DNA from: an uncultured Bacteroidales bacterium | GTDB taxonomy: Bacteria; Bacteroidota; Bacteroidia; Bacteroidales; UBA3663 | Direction of reading: 5' to 3' | NCBI GenBank assembly: GCA_902770595.1 | Contig: CACXTQ010000004.1 | Span: 3,445 to 67,444 of the forward strand | DNA length: 64,000 bases | The notes under the pieces: generated by a model | What the model was told of the DNA's origin: nothing | Database searches by the model: none | What the model saw: only the letters and a program-made list of their open reading frames with translations | Shown: piece after piece, positions 20,609 to 55,460 of the stretch | How the letters are laid out: each line of letters opens with the position of its first letter | Numbering within the stretch: position 1 is the first letter of the stretch | Made by a program: the position numbers and the translations under genes

Positions 20609-21589
20609 ATGAATCAGAAACTGACGGTAGAGGTGACGGAATTCGACAACCTCCGCAACGAATACATGCAATACGAAGCAGCAGGTGAAGACTACATCAA
20701 CATGCTCGATGCCCGACTCATGTCGGAGTACCGAAGCTATGTGGAAGAGGACCCTGTGGCTGCAGAAGATTACCTGGCAGCAGGAAAGGCGCTCATCCGT
20801 GAACTTTCCGATTGGGCAGCGTCGGAGCGCCATCAGGCCGACACCGACTTTGTTGCCAACGCGCTGCACAAGCTGGAAGAAGAAGTCCAACGACAACACT
20901 TCACTCCACAACCCGACGACCGTGCATGGGTTTATCTGGCAGGCGAACACAACGTCTGCCTGCATTACGGCAACGACACCGACAACGTGCGACTGGTCTA
21001 TACACGTGACGGTGTCGAGGAATGCATCAAGGAGTCGGTGCGACTACTGCGCACAAAACGTGAAGCGAGGGAGGCAGAACTGCAACGCACGCTTCAGCAG
21101 ATGCGGGATGCCCTGCAACAATCGCAGCACAACACTCGGAAGCTGGACCGAAGCCGTCTGCTGCGCAGTTTCCATTGCCCGATGATTGCCTACAAGGTCG
21201 CCTTCCTCGAAGGAATAATCAAGGATGTGGCAACGAAGAAAACGGAAGAAATCGAGGCAAAGCAGCACAACGACAACAAACATAATAAGCCACAGGATAA
21301 ACGAGGGAAAGGTTTCGATCCGGAGTTGAACCAATGCTACAGACAATTTGTCGAAGACCTGGCAGAAGTGACTGCTCCACTCGTTATGGCTGGCGATGGC
21401 AAGACTGTGCTGTTCCGCTTTGCCCTGTCCATCCCAAAGAAGGGAGAAATCTCAGTGAGTTGGGATGCGTTCAACTGCCGAAATTATCTTTATGGCCACA
21501 CCTTTGCAGTGCAGCAGGATTATCTGGACGCCCTGCGTTCGTGGTGGGCCACCAGCTGCATGATGGAGATGAAACGATTGAAAATATAA
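20609..21589 (+). CDS. Hypothetical cytoplasmic protein (326 aa), no family recognised
   Basis: A long ORF with normal composition and its own promoter box. It has no signal peptide or TM segment and no motif I recognise. Confidence 0.55.
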   Translation: MNQKLTVEVTEFDNLRNEYMQYEAAGEDYINMLDARLMSEYRSYVEEDPVAAEDYLAAGKALIRELSDWAASERHQADTDFVANALHKLEEEVQRQHFTPQPDDRAWVYLAGEHNVCLHYGNDTDNVRLVYTRDGVEECIKESVRLLRTKREAREAELQRTLQQMRDALQQSQHNTRKLDRSRLLRSFHCPMIAYKVAFLEGIIKDVATKKTEEIEAKQHNDNKHNKPQDKRGKGFDPELNQCYRQFVEDLAEVTAPLVMAGDGKTVLFRFALSIPKKGEISVSWDAFNCRNYLYGHTFAVQQDYLDALRSWWATSCMMEMKRLKI

Positions 21590-21601: not shown

Positions 21602-22630
21602 CTATTCTTTTTTCCAAACCAGATAACTGATATTTTTCGCCTTGGCAAATTTGGATTCTCCCCATTCGTGAAGTTTGCTGTTGATGTCACGAAGGAATCC
21701 AAGGGCATACTGACTGCCCACGAGATAAACGGCGTTGTCGATATTCAGATCCTGCAGAGCTTGGGCGAAATCGTGGAAGGATTCAGGAGTCAATGATTCT
21801 GCCACAAAGAAGTTGCTTCCGCGCTGACAAATTGCGCGACGCACAGCCTTTCCCTTGGGCTGATTTTCGATCATGACACCATCGGCCACAAGCGGATACT
21901 GGCGGAAGAAATCGCCTCCTTCCTGAATAGCCGCTTCGAACAACGGACTATGATCAGTTACTCCTATTCTCATTTTTCCTTGTATAATCGATACATATCC
22001 TTTCTTTGCCAATCCTTTTCCAACAACCTCTCCATTATATACACAAGCGCCCACTATCTCTCCATTATCCTTTCGAATATCCGCAGCCTGAAGGGCCAAG
22101 ACGATATTTGCATCATTAGGATCAATCTTTCCGACTACGAATTTTGGCACCGCGTCCATCGGAATCATCAATTTCAATTCTATTCCATTTATTTCAACCA
22201 TCTTTTCCTGACAATGTGGGACTGCCGATGTCGACGACGTAACCGGAATGTCATCAAGAATCATCGTGTTGGCGGCACTAACTTCCGACTCGAATTGTCC
22301 TTCGGGCACTTCGGGATCGAACATTGCATTTTCCAATTCCTCTACCCCATTCATACGAGCTTCAACAGGCGGTTGACTCATACTACCTTTGAAGATGTAG
22401 AAGAGCACATTGGCAACGATGACAAACAGCACAAACAAGATGAGCAACTTGCGTATGCTCCATCCGTCTTTGGGTTTATTGTATCGTCCCTCTTCCCTAT
22501 CGAAACTCTTTTTCTCGGGCACGGAATCATCTTTTGAACTCTCTGCCGACGGATTAACTGGCACAGTGTTCTTGTCGAAGGTTTCGTCCTTACCGATGAT
22601 ACGAATTTCAGAATCTTTTATGTCTTCCAT
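21602..22630 (-). CDS. Single-pass membrane protein with a large extracytoplasmic domain (possibly DUF2233/phosphodiester-glycosidase-like)
   Basis: An acidic/lysine-rich ~60-aa N-terminus, then a TM segment LLILFVLFVIVANVLFYIF, then a ~260-aa C-terminal domain. It starts 18 nt after the LytTR gene. The family assignment is tentative. Confidence 0.6.
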   Translation of the reverse strand: MEDIKDSEIRIIGKDETFDKNTVPVNPSAESSKDDSVPEKKSFDREEGRYNKPKDGWSIRKLLILFVLFVIVANVLFYIFKGSMSQPPVEARMNGVEELENAMFDPEVPEGQFESEVSAANTMILDDIPVTSSTSAVPHCQEKMVEINGIELKLMIPMDAVPKFVVGKIDPNDANIVLALQAADIRKDNGEIVGACVYNGEVVGKGLAKKGYVSIIQGKMRIGVTDHSPLFEAAIQEGGDFFRQYPLVADGVMIENQPKGKAVRRAICQRGSNFFVAESLTPESFHDFAQALQDLNIDNAVYLVGSQYALGFLRDINSKLHEWGESKFAKAKNISYLVWKKE

Positions 22631-22648
22631 TGTTCCGACAAAAATACA

Positions 22649-23014
22649 TTATTTGATAACACCATTGTCGTATGCATTTTTCAACGCCGTGAGGGCATCC
22701 TTCGAAGCAGTGATTGGGTATCTCACACCACAACCATTGCTTAGAATGAGTTGGCCCTTGGACGGAATGATGACATAGACATAGTCAAGATTGATAATCA
22801 AGCTGCGGCCCACACGCAGGAACCGGTTGTCTTCCTTATTAAGCTGTTCGCGCATGATTTCTTCAAGTTGTCCCAACTGGCATACCAGCACCTGTTCGTC
22901 ATCATCGGCCATCTTGAAACGGGAATAGTTCCCCTCGGCAGCAATATAGACGATGCTGTCGATCGGGAACCTGTAGAGGCCAATGGTGTTGGAGATTGTT
23001 AGATGCGGGGTCAT
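22649..23014 (-). CDS. Stand-alone LytTR-family DNA-binding protein (no receiver domain)
   Basis: 121 aa; IVYIAAEGNYSRF...FLRVGRSLIINLDYV is the LytTR signature pattern. Confidence 0.8.
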   Translation of the reverse strand: MTPHLTISNTIGLYRFPIDSIVYIAAEGNYSRFKMADDDEQVLVCQLGQLEEIMREQLNKEDNRFLRVGRSLIINLDYVYVIIPSKGQLILSNGCGVRYPITASKDALTALKNAYDNGVIK

Positions 23015-23055
23015 CCTTGAATTGTTTCCAATAAAACGCTTTTAATTATTTGCTG

Positions 23056-23063
23056 CAAAGATA
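23056..23063 (-). promoter_or_regulatory. -7 promoter box (TATCTTTG on minus strand)
   Basis: TAnnTTTG match 41 nt upstream of the LytTR ATG. Confidence 0.5.
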
Positions 23064-23151
23064 AGGGTATTTTTTGTATTCTCCAAACCAAAAATCATCA
23101 ACCAAGTCCGCCGGCACCCCAATTTTGTTTAATTTAACACTTTTGATGGTG

Positions 23152-23159
23152 CAAAGATA
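23152..23159 (-). promoter_or_regulatory. Second, distal -7 promoter box (TATCTTTG on minus strand)
   Basis: TAnnTTTG match. The direct-repeat site at 23197-23228 lies 38 bp upstream of it in the minus-strand sense. Confidence 0.4.
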
Positions 23160-23196
23160 GGGCTTATCAAACATATTTCCAAGAAAAATGGGACAA

Positions 23197-23228
23197 ATTG
23201 TACGAAACCCATATCCTATTGTACGAAA
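23197..23228. promoter_or_regulatory. Candidate operator: ATTGTACGAAA direct repeat, two copies 21 bp apart
   Basis: attgtacgaaa occurs at 23197-23207 and 23218-23228. The same GTACGAAA-N13-GTACGAAA arrangement occurs at 55432-55460. Confidence 0.5.
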
Positions 23229-23461
23229 TGTCTCGTGTCACTTTTACGCATTATGAATAATTCGTCGATTAATCCAAAGAAATGGGATATATGACGAATT
23301 ATCACACATTTATTTGAAAGTTTACTTATATTTGCATATATCTATGTAAAAATGACGCAATAAACAAGGGTGTAAGATAGCAAAATTGAAGATTTATGGG
23401 GAAAAGAAACATTTTTTTGAAAAAAGTTACGATATAGTTTGGAGGATGAAGATATTTTTCC

Positions 23462-23469
23462 TATCTTTG
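23462..23469 (+). promoter_or_regulatory. -7 promoter box (TATCTTTG)
   Basis: TAnnTTTG match 27 nt upstream of the ATG at 23497. Confidence 0.55.
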
Positions 23470-23496
23470 CAGTGCAATTCGACAAACTTTAGCGAT

Positions 23497-24300
23497 ATGA
23501 AGAGAGAGTATTTTGAAATCATGAACACGGAAGAGGAGAAATTGACTCGTTCGAAAATGTTGGAACTTTTGACGAAGCGTTACGGAATTCCGGAATTCGA
23601 CGCCAAAGACATTCTGCAAGACGCCTGGCTTGTCCTTCTGGAAAAGCTGATGGTTGGAACACTTTCCGAGAAGCCGAAGAATCTGCTGGCTTACATGACG
23701 AGCATTTGCATCAACAAAGCTCACGAGTACCTCCGCAAGCGGACGTACGAGAACCTGGAGACTTCGCTCGACGACGAAAGTATCCTGCCCGAAAGGCTTG
23801 ACTTGATTCAAAAGGAGATTCAATCGTGGATTGACTTCATCGAAGAGAGCGAAAAGGCACAGCAACGCAAGATGGAAGCCATCGAACAAGCCATCCGAAC
23901 GCTCAACCCTCGTCAACGAGCCTTGCTCGAAGGGTACTACTACGACAAAAGAACGATGAGGGAGCTGGCACAACAACTGGGCTACAGCAACGAGGACGTA
24001 GCCAAGAGCACCAAGAACCGAATCATCAAAACGATTCGCGAAACAATCAAAAAGCAGGAGAGAGCCAATCAAAGCAGGCTCTCCCCTGCTGCCTTTTTAA
24101 AGGTCATAGTTCGTGATGCCCAGGATCTGCCAGAAGTCGGCAGGAAGGGTCACATTCTCGAGCATAATGCAGTCGCGGAACAGCGGGGCAATCGTCGAAG
24201 GTGTATAGCCAGCAATGCCACAACCGATACGCGTCACGAGGAAGCGCATTTCGGGATGTTCGGCAGCGAACTTCGCAAACCGCTCCACAGCGCCAGTTAA
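23497..24300 (+). CDS. Sigma-70 family (ECF-like) RNA polymerase sigma factor with an unusual C-terminal read-on
   Basis: Region-2-like DILQDAWLVLLEKL and region-4-like LNPRQRALLEGYYYDKRTMRELAQQLGYSNEDVAKSTKNRI. The first in-frame stop is at 24300, 204 bp inside the convergent gene. Confidence 0.65.
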   Translation: MKREYFEIMNTEEEKLTRSKMLELLTKRYGIPEFDAKDILQDAWLVLLEKLMVGTLSEKPKNLLAYMTSICINKAHEYLRKRTYENLETSLDDESILPERLDLIQKEIQSWIDFIEESEKAQQRKMEAIEQAIRTLNPRQRALLEGYYYDKRTMRELAQQLGYSNEDVAKSTKNRIIKTIRETIKKQERANQSRLSPAAFLKVIVRDAQDLPEVGRKGHILEHNAVAEQRGNRRRCIASNATTDTRHEEAHFGMFGSELRKPLHSAS

Positions 24301-52640: not shown

Positions 52641-53393
52641 TCAAATCAGCATCAGGATAACAGAAATCCAGGTGACTATGGTGATGAAGCGACGGAAGAT
52701 CTTTTCGGGCAGCCAACGGACCAAACGCAAGCCCAACAGACCACCCAGGACGATGAAGGGCAGACAGCAGAGATCGGCCGCGAACGTGTGAAGCGTGATG
52801 TTGTGCCACGCGAAGATCTGGAGTGGCACTTTCAGCAGGTTCACCACCATGAAGAACCACGCATTAGTTCCCACGAAGTTCATCTTCGGCATCTCGGTCG
52901 ATAGCAGATAGATGGCCATCACGGGTCCTGCCGCATTGCCTATCATCGTGGTGAAACCGCCCAGCAAGCCGAACAACGGCCCATACCACCACTTGTCGAT
53001 GAGCATGTTCTGTTTGCCACGAAACTCGGTCACCATCATCAGGATAAGCACGAAGAGCAGGCAGGCGCCCATGAGTTTCTTGAACTCGGAGGCGGGCACG
53101 AAGTGATCGACGGCAAGTGCCACAAAAAAGCCGGCGATGGCCGAGGGCAGCAGCCGAACGATGTAGGTCCAGTTGGCTACGCGACGATAATGCATCACCG
53201 CGAAGATGTCGGCCATACAGAGCAGAGGCAGTATGAGGCCTGTGGAAGGCTTTGCCCCGAAACTCAGTGCCATAAGGGGAATCACGAGCAGCGTCACCCC
53301 TTGTATTCCCGACTTCGACATACCCACAAGCAACGCGGTGAGTGCCAGTAGCACCCACTGCGATGTTTGATATGTCAAAAAGAATTCGCTCAT
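52641..53393 (-). CDS. TauE/SafE family sulfite/anion exporter
   Basis: 250 aa with ~7-8 TM segments. LLVGMSKSGIQGVTLLVIPLMAL and the GNAAGPVM repeat are typical of TauE. Confidence 0.75.
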   Translation of the reverse strand: MSEFFLTYQTSQWVLLALTALLVGMSKSGIQGVTLLVIPLMALSFGAKPSTGLILPLLCMADIFAVMHYRRVANWTYIVRLLPSAIAGFFVALAVDHFVPASEFKKLMGACLLFVLILMMVTEFRGKQNMLIDKWWYGPLFGLLGGFTTMIGNAAGPVMAIYLLSTEMPKMNFVGTNAWFFMVVNLLKVPLQIFAWHNITLHTFAADLCCLPFIVLGGLLGLRLVRWLPEKIFRRFITIVTWISVILMLI

Positions 53394-54521
53394 TTACTCT
53401 ATCTTTCCTGCCATGCGGAGACGGACGGGAGCAGGAGTAGAGGGAGCCGTGATTGCAGCTGTGTTGACAGGCTGCTGGTTGCCCACTATGTCGAACTGGA
53501 GGGTTGCACCATCACCGCGTACGTCGATGGTGACAGGAGCGCCCATCACGAGGGGCAGATTCACGTCGCCGTGACCAGCGGGGAAGCCGCAGAGCACGGG
53601 GATTCGATAGTCCTTCAGCATCTCGTGGAGCATGGCCTCGACACTGATAGTCGTGCCATCGGGCTGCTTGAACTCGGTGCCGCAATCGGTGAACTCACCA
53701 AGGATGATGCCATTGCAGCGGTCGAGCACACCGTTCATCTGCAGGATACGCATCTGACGATCGATGTTGTGCATCGACTCCTCGACTTCCTCGATGAAGA
53801 GTATCAGGTTCTTGCCCTTGGTGGCATCGGCCTGTGAGCCAAGGTTGGGCACGAAGGTGCAGATGTTTCCTCCAACGAGCACACCACTAGCCTTACCCTC
53901 GATGTTCTGCTCGTGGGCGGGCAGTTCGTAGCGCGGAACGTTGCCGAGCAACAGGTCACGCAAGAGGATGCTGGAGGCATCGGTGCCACCCTTGGCGAGG
54001 AATGAACTCATGGTGCCGTGGATGCTCATCACCCCTGCACAGCTCCACAAGCCATGGAGTGTGGAGATGTCGCTGAAGCCGATGATCCACTTGGGCGAAG
54101 CCTTGATTACGGAGAGCGACAGGCGGTCGATTAGCTGGATGGATCCATAGCCGCCACGGTTACAGAGGATAGCCTTGATGGAAGGGTCGCTGAGCGCCCA
54201 ACGGAGGTCGCTGACGCGTTCGGCTACGGTTCCGGCATATTTTCCATCGACAATCTTACCTACGTTGGGACCGATGACGGGTTCGAATCCCCAGGCCCGC
54301 AGGAGGTCGGCCGTCTTCTCGACATTCTCCATCGGAGTGAAGTAAGAGGGCGAGACAAGTGCCACCTTGTCGCCTGCCTTGAGGTAGTCGGGCTTGACGC
54401 ATCTTTGCACATTTTGGTCAGGATTGACGAAATCGGGGTCATCGCCTTCGCACGAAGACAACATAAACATACTTATGGCAGCCATCAGGGTAGCTACTGC
54501 CATCGAAATAATCTTTTTCAT
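53394..54521 (-). CDS. LD-carboxypeptidase (peptidase S66) lipoprotein
   Basis: Lipobox MLSSC; VALVSPSY...; nucleophile motif IGFSDISTLHG; C-terminus GFPAGHG. Confidence 0.8.
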   Translation of the reverse strand: MKKIISMAVATLMAAISMFMLSSCEGDDPDFVNPDQNVQRCVKPDYLKAGDKVALVSPSYFTPMENVEKTADLLRAWGFEPVIGPNVGKIVDGKYAGTVAERVSDLRWALSDPSIKAILCNRGGYGSIQLIDRLSLSVIKASPKWIIGFSDISTLHGLWSCAGVMSIHGTMSSFLAKGGTDASSILLRDLLLGNVPRYELPAHEQNIEGKASGVLVGGNICTFVPNLGSQADATKGKNLILFIEEVEESMHNIDRQMRILQMNGVLDRCNGIILGEFTDCGTEFKQPDGTTISVEAMLHEMLKDYRIPVLCGFPAGHGDVNLPLVMGAPVTIDVRGDGATLQFDIVGNQQPVNTAAITAPSTPAPVRLRMAGKIE

Positions 54522-54657: not shown

Positions 54658-55344
54658 TTACTTCAGATAGTACTCGATAGTGGTGACGACGCGGACCTTA
54701 CGCTTGTGGGGCATAACCTCGTCGCTCTCGATCTCGAACTGACCCTGGCGTGCAGTGCAGATGCTGCCGAGCTTTGCTCCGGCATCTTCGGCAAACTTCT
54801 GTGCCACGATGCGTGCGTTCTTGGTGGCTTCCTCCACCATCTCGGGCTTCAGGTCGTTCAAGCCAGTGTATTCGTAACTGCAGTAACTGTTGTCGAGGAG
54901 AACACCCTGCTTGAGCAGGTCGAGTTGCTTCATACGCAGCGTCATGATTTTCTCAACGTCGGACGAAACGATGGTGAGACGACCGGTCACAACGAAACGT
55001 GCCATAACGTCCTTCTTCTCGTTCCAGTTGTACCATGAGGAACGGTCCTCAGCCGAAGGAACATCGAGGAAGATCTCGTCCTCCTTCACGCCATTTGACT
55101 TGAGGAACTTGATGAGTTTGTCCTGCTTTGGCTCGAGGCTCTCGTAGAGGAACTCAAGTGCATTGCCGGCCACGTTGTACGACAGCGACCAGGTCACCTT
55201 GTCTGCCATAACTTCGCGCTCAGAAAGGCCCTTGACGGTAACATGACGATCCTTGTTGGCAATCTTTTCGATGCCACAATAGATGAAGTAACCCGACAGG
55301 GCTACTCCGATACCCAGGATCAATGCCCAAACATAATTTTTCAT
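54658..55344 (-). CDS. SIMPL (DUF541) domain protein, membrane-anchored
   Basis: 228 aa with an N-terminal TM segment. RHVTVKGLSEREVMADKVTWSLSY and the overall pattern fit the SIMPL family. Confidence 0.7.
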   Translation of the reverse strand: MKNYVWALILGIGVALSGYFIYCGIEKIANKDRHVTVKGLSEREVMADKVTWSLSYNVAGNALEFLYESLEPKQDKLIKFLKSNGVKEDEIFLDVPSAEDRSSWYNWNEKKDVMARFVVTGRLTIVSSDVEKIMTLRMKQLDLLKQGVLLDNSYCSYEYTGLNDLKPEMVEEATKNARIVAQKFAEDAGAKLGSICTARQGQFEIESDEVMPHKRKVRVVTTIEYYLK

Positions 55345-55382: not shown

Positions 55383-55390
55383 CAAAGATA
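55383..55390 (-). promoter_or_regulatory. -7 promoter box (TATCTTTG on minus strand)
   Basis: TAnnTTTG match 38 nt upstream of the ATG at 55344. Confidence 0.5.
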
Positions 55391-55431
55391 GCGGTTTCTG
55401 CCGAAATATGCAAGAAAAAGGATGGAAAAAA

Positions 55432-55460
55432 GTACGAAACATATTCACCTTTGTACGAAA
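55432..55460. promoter_or_regulatory. Candidate operator: GTACGAAA direct repeat, two copies 21 bp apart (second occurrence in the window)
   Basis: gtacgaaa occurs at 55432-55439 and 55453-55460, in the divergent SIMPL/GH2 promoter region, 42 bp upstream of the minus-strand -7 box. Confidence 0.5.

What the first reader, a model, noticed from the sequence alone, without database searches (positions are those of the whole stretch)
21602..23014. Stand-alone LytTR regulator co-transcribed with a single-pass membrane protein, resembling a LytTR regulatory system
Seen: a 121-aa protein consisting only of a LytTR DNA-binding domain. Eighteen nt downstream is a gene for a protein with a charged ~60-aa cytoplasmic N-terminus, one TM helix and a ~260-aa outside domain. 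Established: in streptococci, LytTR regulatory systems (HdrRM, BrsRM) pair a receiver-less LytTR activator with a membrane-bound inhibitor and autoregulate through direct repeats. Inference: this could be an analogous sequestration switch in Bacteroidota. The extracytoplasmic domain would act as sensor and the N-terminal tail as the LytTR-binding element, like an anti-sigma factor. A divergent sigma factor gene sits next door.
Basis: partly seen in the sequence, partly recalled or inferred. Interest (0 to 1): 0.6.

Follow-up and report, generated by a model that had tools for sequence, protein, structure and literature searches.

The report
LytTR switch with pseudo-glycosidase membrane partner
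A small DNA-binding regulator and a membrane protein whose outer domain is a sugar-phosphate glycosidase fold lacking its catalytic motif form a conserved two-gene switch in gut and rumen Bacteroidales; it probably turns on itself and a few cell-envelope genes, and nobody has tested it.

Summary
On the minus strand, a 121-aa LytTR-only protein (23014..22649) lies 18 nt upstream of a 342-aa type-II membrane protein (22630..21602).

The pairing is not chance. In 78 of 80 related loci from many Bacteroidales families, a ~120-aa LytTR gene sits directly upstream on the same strand. The other two loci have no upstream DNA.

Main findings:
- **Membrane protein:** it has an invariant cytoplasmic N-terminal motif (D-I-x-D-x-E/Q-I-R-I/V-I-G), a variable linker and one TM helix. 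Its periplasmic domain has the NAGPA/DUF2233 fold, but the catalytic DGGGS motif is replaced by V-G-S-x-Y.
- **Binding site:** a direct repeat, TTTC[AG]TACA-N12-TTTC[AG]TACA, lies 39-40 nt upstream of a Bacteroidetes -7 box in 64 of 78 operon promoters, this one included.
- **Targets:** the same site precedes a SIMPL / LD-carboxypeptidase / TauE gene row 32 kb away in this window. A paralogous pair elsewhere in the genome has it in front of creD.
- **Binding test:** a complex prediction for the regulator with the N-terminal tail gave only weak support (0.44; best control 0.00).
- **Sigma gene:** the neighbouring sigma gene is incidental.

Best reading: this is a LytTR regulatory system like HdrRM/BrsRM, with a new class of membrane partner. 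This scan reached the same reading earlier on other DNA (e1-3622376, e1-4084962). Inhibition and the signal are inferred, not shown.

The parts
22649..23014 (-). Gene for a 121-aa receiver-less LytTR DNA-binding regulator (stop codon included)
   Evidence: ORF. PF04397 at 38.8 bits, cut-off 22.6. Orthologues are 116-130 aa in 78 loci. Alignment A2.
21602..22630 (-). Gene for the 342-aa single-pass (N-in/C-out) membrane partner
   Evidence: ORF. More than 2400 homologues. Alignment A1. AF2 model.
22592..22624 (-). Codons for residues 3-13, the conserved cytoplasmic motif D-I-K-D-S-E-I-R-I-I-G; proposed LytTR-binding element
   Evidence: D6 and R10 are invariant in A1. The Arg is 63/63 and the motif was found in 71 loci, with all six Arg codons in use. 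The complex prediction gave weak support.
22391..22447 (-). Codons for the transmembrane helix (residues about 62-80)
   Evidence: AF2 helix 58-81 with pLDDT above 80. The hydrophobic run is visible in the translation.
21608..22216 (-). Codons for the periplasmic NAGPA/DUF2233-fold domain (residues 139-341), lacking the DGGGS catalytic motif
   Evidence: pLDDT above 90. Foldseek hits 6pku at E 1.2e-9 and 3ohg at E 1.4e-9. Pfam PF09992 scores 19.1 bits, below the cut-off of 25. DGGGS aligns to V304-G305-S-x-Y.
23199..23228 (-). Direct repeat TTTCGTACA-N12-TTTCGTACA (21-bp period); proposed LytTR binding site for autoregulation
   Evidence: Read. It is the only exact match in the genome. The same motif at the same position occurs in 64/78 related promoters.
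23152..23159 (-). Bacteroidetes -7 box TATCTTTG of the repeat-dependent promoter, 39 nt after the second repeat; a -33-like TTG lies at 23180-23182
   Evidence: The TAnnTTTG consensus is as cited in PMC6193735.
23056..23063 (-). Second TATCTTTG box inside the ~135-nt leader; possible basal promoter
   Evidence: It is seen only in this clade (L012-L015).
55431..55460 (-). Second copy of the direct repeat (TTTCGTACA-N12-TTTCGTACT), 40 nt upstream of a TATCTTTG box at 55383-55390
   Evidence: Genome scan found 5 sites against 0 in the control. Sequence. Conserved in the near-identical relative G010.
54658..55344 (-). SIMPL/DUF541 gene, predicted target of the regulator
   Evidence: PF04402 at E 1e-17. 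SIMPL genes are also the repeat-preceded downstream gene in L040 and L069.
52641..54521 (-). LD-carboxypeptidase (Peptidase_S66) and TauE/SafE genes downstream of SIMPL; possibly co-transcribed (136-nt gap after SIMPL)
   Evidence: PF02016/PF17676, PF01925. Coordinates.

Best explanation
This is a LytTR regulatory system (LRS) of a type not yet described, and it occurs widely but patchily in Bacteroidales.

Proposed mechanism:
1. The 121-aa LytTR protein is a transcription activator. It binds a pair of 9-bp repeats (TTTC[AG]TACA, 21-bp period) placed just upstream of the -33/-7 promoter elements.
2. One such site drives its own two-gene operon, giving positive feedback. Another drives a SIMPL / LD-carboxypeptidase / TauE gene row 32 kb away.
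3. The co-transcribed membrane protein controls the regulator. Its short, conserved cytoplasmic N-terminal motif holds the regulator at the membrane, like an anti-sigma factor.
4. Its periplasmic domain is a NAGPA/DUF2233 glycosidase fold that has lost the catalytic DGGGS motif. It acts as a ligand-binding sensor, probably for a sugar-phosphate-type envelope component. Signal perception releases the regulator.

Shown here: gene anatomy, domain folds, loss of the catalytic motif, conservation of the pair, and conservation and placement of the repeats. Inferred: DNA binding to these repeats, the protein-protein contact, the inhibitory direction of control, and the nature of the signal.
For: **Pair conservation.** 78 of 80 loci have a ~120-aa LytTR gene directly upstream on the same strand. 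These loci come from Prevotellaceae, Bacteroidaceae, Alistipes, Muribaculaceae, Barnesiella, Paludibacteraceae and others. The genes are mostly 14 nt overlapping to 4 nt apart. No other neighbour is shared by more than about 28 loci.

**Binding site.** The repeat pair has a 20-21 bp period and ends 39-40 nt before TAnnTTTG in 64/78 operon promoters. Shuffled sequences rarely reach the observed match.

**Genome-wide specificity.** There are 5 sites in this genome against 0 for the reversed pattern. Four have the same promoter geometry. The count is 17 against 4 in five same-genus genomes.

**Targets.** In about 40 related loci a second repeat site follows the membrane gene. It precedes exported or envelope-associated proteins: alpha-2-macroglobulin, SIMPL, a ~320-aa lipoprotein and WG-repeat proteins. 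The paralogous pair on contig C45 has a site in front of creD.

**N-terminal motif.** It is conserved at the protein level, with all six Arg codons used at the invariant Arg, while the linker varies in length and sequence.

**Complex prediction** (regulator with residues 1-62). Verdict: weak support, score 0.44, best of 3 controls 0.00.
- The mark was reached by 58 of 80 solved complexes and 2 of 110 mismatched pairs.
- At 0.60 or under it was reached by only 7 of those 80 solved complexes and by both mismatches.
- The runs agree in at least 90% of contacts, and the partner's pLDDT is at least 48.

**Sensor domain.** Foldseek matches NAGPA and DUF2233 at E about 1e-9. The invariant DGGGS motif, with catalytic Asp286 of human NAGPA (PMC13474241), aligns to the family-invariant V-G-S-x-Y.

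**Match to the published LRS definition.** The architecture fits Zou et al. 2018 (PMC6193735): a receiver-less LytTR regulator, a co-transcribed membrane protein, and 9-bp repeats 11-13 bp apart just upstream of the promoter.
Against: No experiment exists for any member.

The complex prediction is only a weak pass, of the kind the tool calls more often wrong than right unless the guess was likely beforehand. The N-terminal tail is modelled with low confidence, with pLDDT about 39 alone and about 49 in the complex.

Nothing here distinguishes inhibition from activation by the membrane protein.

The hhalign match that places DGGGS opposite V-G-S has low probability (7%, small alignments). The assignment therefore rests on the fold match plus the local strand alignment.

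Several invariant polar residues in the outer domain (D184, R186, D188, N189, R243, Q244, H286, D287) could form a different active site, so it might be an enzyme rather than a pure sensor.

14 of 78 promoters lack a clean repeat pair under the rule used.
Confidence: 0.68

Rival explanations
1. The same two-gene module, but the membrane protein is a positive partner. It would be a co-activator or signal-dependent tether needed for the regulator to work, as ToxS is for ToxR, rather than an inhibitor.
For: All the conservation and motif evidence fits either direction of control. The complex prediction says nothing about direction. DanRI in E. coli shows that LytTR-only systems can differ from the streptococcal pattern.
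Against: In every LRS tested, the partner inhibits: HdrM and BrsM in PMC6193735, and DanI in the DanRI preprint. A positive-feedback promoter that co-expresses regulator and partner is the usual design for an activator with its antagonist.
Confidence: 0.15
2. The membrane protein is simply a regulated product with no protein-protein contact. It would be a periplasmic glycan-processing or glycan-binding protein whose gene is co-transcribed with its regulator, and the regulator would be controlled by something else.
For: The outer domain keeps many invariant polar residues and an enzyme fold. The binding prediction is weak.
Against: A strictly conserved 11-residue cytoplasmic motif at the tip of an otherwise variable tail has no role in a periplasmic enzyme. 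The catalytic DGGGS motif is gone. The pair is kept together in 78/80 loci while the other targets vary from genome to genome. The regulator has no other input domain.
Confidence: 0.1
3. The pair is part of an ECF sigma / anti-sigma circuit with the divergent sigma gene, and the membrane protein is that sigma factor's anti-sigma factor.
For: A sigma-70/ECF-type ORF lies divergently at 23386. The membrane protein has the single-pass topology typical of anti-sigma factors.
Against: The sigma gene is found next to the pair only in the closest relatives (L012-L015) plus two weak hits among 80 loci. The membrane gene is coupled to the LytTR gene, not to the sigma gene. No anti-sigma domain was detected.
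Confidence: 0.03

Closest known systems
LytTR regulatory systems of Streptococcus mutans (HdrRM, BrsRM and three others; Zou et al. 2018, PMC6193735)
   Same: A receiver-less soluble LytTR regulator sits upstream of a co-transcribed membrane protein. [quoted passage not shown] There are two paralogous systems in one genome with similar repeats. The regulon is small and accessory.
   Different: The membrane partner is unrelated. Here it is single-pass with a large periplasmic NAGPA-fold domain, not a polytopic DUF3021/DUF2154 protein. Zou's survey required those two domains, so it could not have found this family. The promoter is of the Bacteroidetes -33/-7 type. Inhibition is untested here.
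Bacteroides 'LRS-like' operons noted by Zou et al. (Btheta7330_RS19920/RS19915, Bovatus_RS21370/RS21375)
   Same: They occur in the same bacterial order, combine a LytTR regulator with a membrane protein, and have direct repeats upstream of a TAnnTTTG promoter.
   Different: Those operons have the membrane protein (NfeD + DUF2154) upstream, a LytTR regulator that is itself membrane-embedded, and 11-bp repeats 11 bp apart. Here the regulator is soluble and comes first, and the partner is a pseudo-NAGPA protein.
NAGPA 'uncovering enzyme' / bacterial DUF2233 phosphodiester glycosidases (PDB 6PKU, 3OHG; Pfam PF09992)
   Same: The outer domain has the same fold (Foldseek E about 1e-9, probability 1.00).
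   Different: Sequence similarity is below Pfam's cut-off (19.1 against 25 bits). The invariant DGGGS motif with the catalytic Asp is replaced by V-G-S-x-Y (PMC13474241). The domain is membrane-anchored with a cytoplasmic regulatory tail.
ECF sigma factor / membrane anti-sigma factor pairs
   Same: The logic is the same: a cytoplasmic transcription factor is co-expressed with a single-pass membrane protein. That protein's N-terminal cytoplasmic part would hold the factor, and its outer domain would sense the envelope. The targets are envelope-related.
   Different: The factor held is a LytTR activator, not a sigma factor. The proposed binding element is an 11-residue motif, not an anti-sigma domain.
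DanRI of uropathogenic E. coli (bioRxiv 10.1101/2025.06.10.658900)
   Same: A 122-aa LytTR-only regulator is paired with an adjacent inhibitor gene in a Gram-negative bacterium.
   Different: DanI is described there with a predicted four-cysteine zinc-finger domain, not as a periplasmic sensor protein, and DanRI is reported to lack autoregulation.

Membership tests
LytTR DNA-binding domain family (Pfam PF04397) | Match to the family model above the curated cut-off | tested here: met
   38.8 bits against a cut-off of 22.6, covering residues 13-114 of 121.
LytTR regulatory system (LRS, Zou et al. 2018) | The regulator is a LytTR protein without a receiver or other input domain | tested here: met
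   The protein is 121 aa with only PF04397. All orthologues are 116-130 aa.
LytTR regulatory system (LRS, Zou et al. 2018) | A membrane protein gene is co-transcribed directly downstream of the regulator gene | tested here: met
   The gap is 18 nt on the same strand. The arrangement is conserved in 78/80 loci, mostly overlapping or no more than 4 nt apart. Transcription itself was not measured.
LytTR regulatory system (LRS, Zou et al. 2018) | A pair of ~9-bp direct repeats, 11-13 bp apart, immediately upstream of the operon promoter | tested here: met
   TTTCGTACA-N12-TTTCGTACA lies at 23228..23199, 39 nt before the -7 box. It is conserved in 64/78 loci.
LytTR regulatory system (LRS, Zou et al. 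2018) | The membrane protein inhibits the regulator, giving a basal off state and positive feedback on release | not testable with these tools
   The only result is a weak-support complex prediction (0.44 against 0.00 for the controls). A deletion mutant and a reporter are needed.
LytTR regulatory system (LRS, Zou et al. 2018) | The membrane protein carries DUF3021 or DUF2154 (the filter used in the published survey) | tested here: not met
   Pfam finds neither domain. The fold is NAGPA/DUF2233. This was a survey filter rather than a functional definition.
Phosphodiester glycosidase / NAGPA (Pfam PF09992) | The same three-dimensional fold | tested here: met
   Foldseek hits 6pku at E 1.2e-9 and 3ohg at E 1.4e-9, both with probability 1.00.
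Phosphodiester glycosidase / NAGPA (Pfam PF09992) | Match to the family model above the curated cut-off | tested here: not met
   19.1 bits against a cut-off of 25; 20.8 bits in the genome search.
Phosphodiester glycosidase / NAGPA (Pfam PF09992) | The invariant DGGGS motif with the catalytic Asp (PMC13474241) | tested here: not met
   Canonical family members from Bacteroidales carry DGGGS. In hhalign it aligns to V304-G305-S-x-Y, which is invariant in A1. The paralogue has I-T-G-G. The hhalign probability is low, so the residue assignment is likely but not certain.
ECF sigma / anti-sigma pair | Conserved adjacency of the membrane protein gene with a sigma factor gene | tested here: not met
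   The sigma homologue is next to the pair only in L012-L015, plus two weak hits among 80 loci.

The most novel reading that the evidence does not exclude
The catalytically dead NAGPA-fold ectodomain is a receptor for a GlcNAc-1-phosphate-type envelope glycan or lipid-linked intermediate. The 11-residue N-terminal motif is a portable peptide that captures a LytTR domain. Together they would form a Bacteroidales envelope-damage response that does the job of sigma-E-type systems. It would also be the first LytTR regulatory system with an identifiable ligand-binding sensor domain, which would make the long-unknown input signals of this class directly testable.
Probability: 0.3. Interest if true: 0.75.

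Novelty: new variant of a known kind. Interest (0 to 1): 0.6.

Why it matters
LytTR regulatory systems were proposed in 2018 as a separate class of bacterial sensory system. Only a few have been studied, mostly in Gram-positive bacteria, and their input signals are still unknown.

This family would extend the class to dominant gut and rumen Bacteroidales. It offers three experimental handles:
- a sensor domain of known fold, so candidate ligands can be guessed;
- a short, sharply defined cytoplasmic motif that can be mutated;
- a clear DNA site that allows regulons to be read from genomes.

The predicted targets are alpha-2-macroglobulin, CreD, SIMPL, an LD-carboxypeptidase and lipoproteins. 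They point to envelope protection, a trait relevant to survival in the gut. Public annotation calls the partner a hypothetical protein.

Tried and rejected
- Neighbourhoods were taken from the search for related loci and the genome search instead.
- **Sigma factor as part of the system.** Rejected, because it is conserved only in the closest relatives.
- **Natural fusion of regulator and membrane protein (L088).** Rejected. It is an in-frame deletion of about 240 bp that joins LytTR residues 1-70 to the TM helix, so it is a damaged copy or an assembly artefact. L045 has a split LytTR gene.
- **PDB sequence-profile search with A1.** Found nothing meaningful. Only the fold search found NAGPA.
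- **Canonical PF09992 member in this genome.** None found.
- **Carriage on phages or plasmids.** There was no phage match, and one distant paralogue-type match on a 205-kb Prevotella replicon. There is therefore no evidence that the pair rides on such elements, although its distribution is patchy:
  - 7 of 24 same-genus genomes;
  - 10 of 291 evenly drawn high-quality genomes of the order;
  - 1 of 300 drawn phylum-wide, and that one is in the same order.
- **N-terminal conservation as an RNA/DNA-level effect of gene overlap.** Rejected, because synonymous codons vary freely.
- **The ~320-aa lipoprotein as a target here.** It is a common target elsewhere. Its homologue in this genome (contig C52) has no repeat upstream.
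- **The repeat-like site on contig C14 (before ftsX/uppP).** Its second repeat ends only about 10 nt before the -7 box, so it is left as doubtful.
- **Literature search for LytTR with Bacteroidales genera.** Returned nothing relevant. No paper in the library describes this family.
Full report
**What is there.** Both genes lie on the minus strand.
- The upstream gene (23014..22649) encodes 121 aa. This protein is a LytTR domain and nothing else: PF04397, 38.8 bits against a cut-off of 22.6, residues 13-114.
- After an 18-nt spacer, the second gene (22630..21602) encodes 342 aa.
- That protein has a charged, hydrophilic N-terminus (1-61), one hydrophobic helix (about 62-80) with Lys/Arg on its N-terminal side, and a 262-aa C-terminal part.

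**The pair is a conserved module.**
- The membrane protein has more than 2400 relatives in the protein collection.
- It has 529 loci in one-genome-per-species contigs. The best 80 are all Bacteroidales: Prevotellaceae, Bacteroidaceae, Alistipes/Rikenellaceae, Muribaculaceae, Barnesiella, Coprobacter and Paludibacteraceae.
- In 78 of these 80 loci a LytTR homologue lies directly upstream on the same strand. The other two have no upstream DNA.
- All the regulators are 116-130 aa.
- The two genes mostly overlap by 4-14 nt or lie 0-4 nt apart.
- Clustering of all neighbouring ORFs found no other gene shared by more than about 28 loci, and that cluster is antisense noise.
- The divergent sigma gene recurs only in the closest relatives, L012-L015. 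It is incidental.
- The distribution is patchy:
  - 7 of 24 same-genus genomes;
  - 10 of 291 high-quality genomes drawn evenly across the order;
  - none outside the order among about 290 further Bacteroidota genomes searched.
- No copy was found on phages. One distant copy lies on a large Prevotella replicon, where the partner is annotated as hypothetical.

**Anatomy of the membrane protein.** Alignment A1 shows three zones.
- *Zone 1, the extreme N-terminus.* It carries the motif [KD]-[DE]-I-x-D-D-[EQ]-[IL]-R-[IV]-[IL]-G. The Arg is invariant in 63 of 63 sequences. All six Arg codons and free synonymous variation are seen across 71 loci. Selection therefore acts on the peptide, not on the RNA.
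- *Zone 2, the linker region.* It comprises a cytoplasmic linker of very variable length and sequence, the TM helix, and a variable periplasmic linker.
- *Zone 3, a strongly conserved C-terminal domain of about 200 aa.*
  - AlphaFold2 models residues 139-341 with pLDDT above 90 and leaves the N-terminal tail disordered.
  - Foldseek matches the NAGPA catalytic domain (6pku, E 1.2e-9) and the Bacteroides ovatus DUF2233 protein (3ohg, E 1.4e-9), both with probability 1.00.
  - Pfam sees the same family below its cut-off (19.1 bits).
  - NAGPA-family enzymes have an invariant DGGGS motif with the catalytic Asp (PMC13474241).
  - Canonical members from Bacteroidales genomes carry it.
  - In this family the aligned positions read V-G-S-x-Y, with the Val and Gly invariant.
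  - The hhalign probability is low, so the residue assignment is likely rather than certain.
  - The domain is best read as a pseudo-glycosidase kept for binding. Even so, several invariant polar residues leave room for a different chemistry.

**The DNA site.**
- Upstream of the LytTR gene lies TTTCGTACA-N12-TTTCGTACA (23228..23199), with a 21-bp period.
- It ends 39 nt before a Bacteroidetes -7 box, TATCTTTG (23159..23152), with a -33-like TTG in between.
- An unbiased search for the best 19-23-bp-period repeat in 78 upstream regions returned the same word, ATTTC[AG]TACA, in most of them.
- With a rule of at most 2 mismatches per copy, 64 of 78 promoters have the pair. It ends 39-40 nt before TAnnTTTG.
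- This is the geometry Zou et al. describe for LRS operons: 9-bp repeats 11-13 bp apart, just upstream of the promoter.
- In this clade the leader is about 135 nt long and holds a second TATCTTTG box (23063..23056).

**The regulon.** A scan of the whole genome (at most 2 mismatches in total) found 5 sites, against 0 for the reversed pattern.
- Site 1 is the operon's own promoter.
- Site 2 is in this window at 55460..55431. It lies 40 nt before a TATCTTTG box and precedes a SIMPL gene, followed by an LD-carboxypeptidase gene and a TauE gene. It is conserved in the 99%-identical relative G010.
- Site 3 is the promoter of a paralogous pair on contig C45. That regulator is 36% identical and that partner 28% identical to those in this window, and the paralogous partner also lacks the Asp.
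- Site 4 lies right after that paralogous pair, in front of creD.
- Site 5, before ftsX/uppP, has different spacing and is doubtful.
- In about 40 of the 80 related loci, a second repeat site follows the membrane gene and precedes varied exported proteins: a ~320-aa lipoprotein in about 13 loci, alpha-2-macroglobulin in about 10, and SIMPL, WG-repeat, TPR and vWA proteins in the rest.
- Five same-genus genomes have 17 sites, against 4 in the controls.
- The regulon is therefore small, differs between genomes, and leans towards envelope and periplasmic functions.

**Does the regulator touch the tail?** A complex prediction of the regulator (alignment A2) with residues 1-62 (from A1) returned weak support: 0.44 against 0.00 for the three controls. 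Contacts were reproducible but the partner's confidence was low. By the tool's own calibration, a pass at this level is weak. The stronger arguments are indirect:
- the tail motif is the only conserved cytoplasmic element;
- the regulator has no other input domain;
- the pair is inseparable while its targets change.

**Mechanism and rivals.**
- The best reading (confidence about 0.68) is an LRS-type switch. The regulator activates the repeat-bearing promoters, including its own. The membrane protein holds it through the N-terminal motif. The pseudo-NAGPA domain senses an envelope-related ligand and releases it.
- The direction of control is taken from tested systems (HdrM, BrsM, DanI). It is not shown here, and a positive-partner version keeps about 0.15.
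- A reading in which the membrane protein is only a co-transcribed product keeps about 0.10. The conserved cytoplasmic motif argues against it.
- An anti-sigma reading is essentially excluded.

**Comparison with what is known.**
- The module meets the structural definition of an LRS: a receiver-less LytTR regulator, a co-transcribed membrane protein, and promoter-proximal direct repeats.
- Its membrane partner is unrelated to the DUF3021/DUF2154 proteins that the 2018 survey required.
- It also differs from the Bacteroides 'LRS-like' operons noted there, which have an NfeD-DUF2154 protein first and a membrane-embedded LytTR.
- No paper in the library describes it.
- It is therefore a new variant of a known kind.
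- This scan reached the same reading earlier on other genomes (e1-3622376, e1-4084962). All of these points were re-derived here from the sequence.

Noticed in passing
G000 contig C45:29905-31318 (locus L104:3906-5319): A second, paralogous LytTR plus pseudo-NAGPA membrane pair lies in the same genome (36% and 28% identity). It has the same repeat word in its promoter and a further repeat site in front of creD. Because the repeats are so similar, the two systems could cross-regulate, as HdrRM and BrsRM do. The paralogue's N-terminal tail has a different motif (a run of Ile flanked by acidic residues).
   Followed up: partly
Related loci, e.g. L018:4950-5050, L047:4895-4995, L076:4659-4760: In about 40 of 80 loci, the repeat site after the membrane gene is followed by a GC-rich hairpin, an inverted half-site (TGTACGA) and a T-run, all before the -7 box. 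A terminator-like hairpin therefore seems to sit inside the spacer of the next promoter. The window itself lacks this arrangement, because its downstream neighbour is convergent.
   Followed up: partly
L088:3587-4606: This copy has an in-frame deletion of about 240 bp that joins LytTR residues 1-70 to the TM helix of the partner, removing the N-terminal motif. It is a damaged system or an assembly artefact. L045 has a split LytTR gene.
   Followed up: yes
window 23015-23151: In this clade the operon leader is about 135 nt long, against about 50 nt in most relatives, and it contains a second TATCTTTG box at 23056-23063. This may be a repeat-independent basal promoter.
   Followed up: no
window 22276-22300 (residues about 111-118 of the membrane protein): A small conserved periplasmic motif near the membrane (E-G-x-F-E, Phe113 nearly invariant) sits in an otherwise variable linker. 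NAGPA is kept inactive by an N-terminal propeptide lying in its groove, so this segment might dock on the domain in a similar way.
   Followed up: no
G000 contig C14:14324-14352 (locus L105:1325-1353): A repeat-like pair (TTTCATGCA / TTTCGTGCA, 20-bp period) lies before ftsX and uppP (BacA). Its second copy ends only about 10 nt before the -7 box. It could be a repressive site or a chance match.
   Followed up: partly
window 23386-24300: The sigma-70/ECF-type ORF is long (304 aa from a TTG start). The recognisable regions span only about residues 63-225. The true start is probably a later ATG, and the 3' end overlaps the convergent vWA gene. Another note of this scan also records this.
   Followed up: no
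window 20609-21589: A 326-aa ORF convergent with the membrane gene, 12 nt between their ends, has no Pfam or NCBIfam match and recurs only in the closest relatives.
   Followed up: partly
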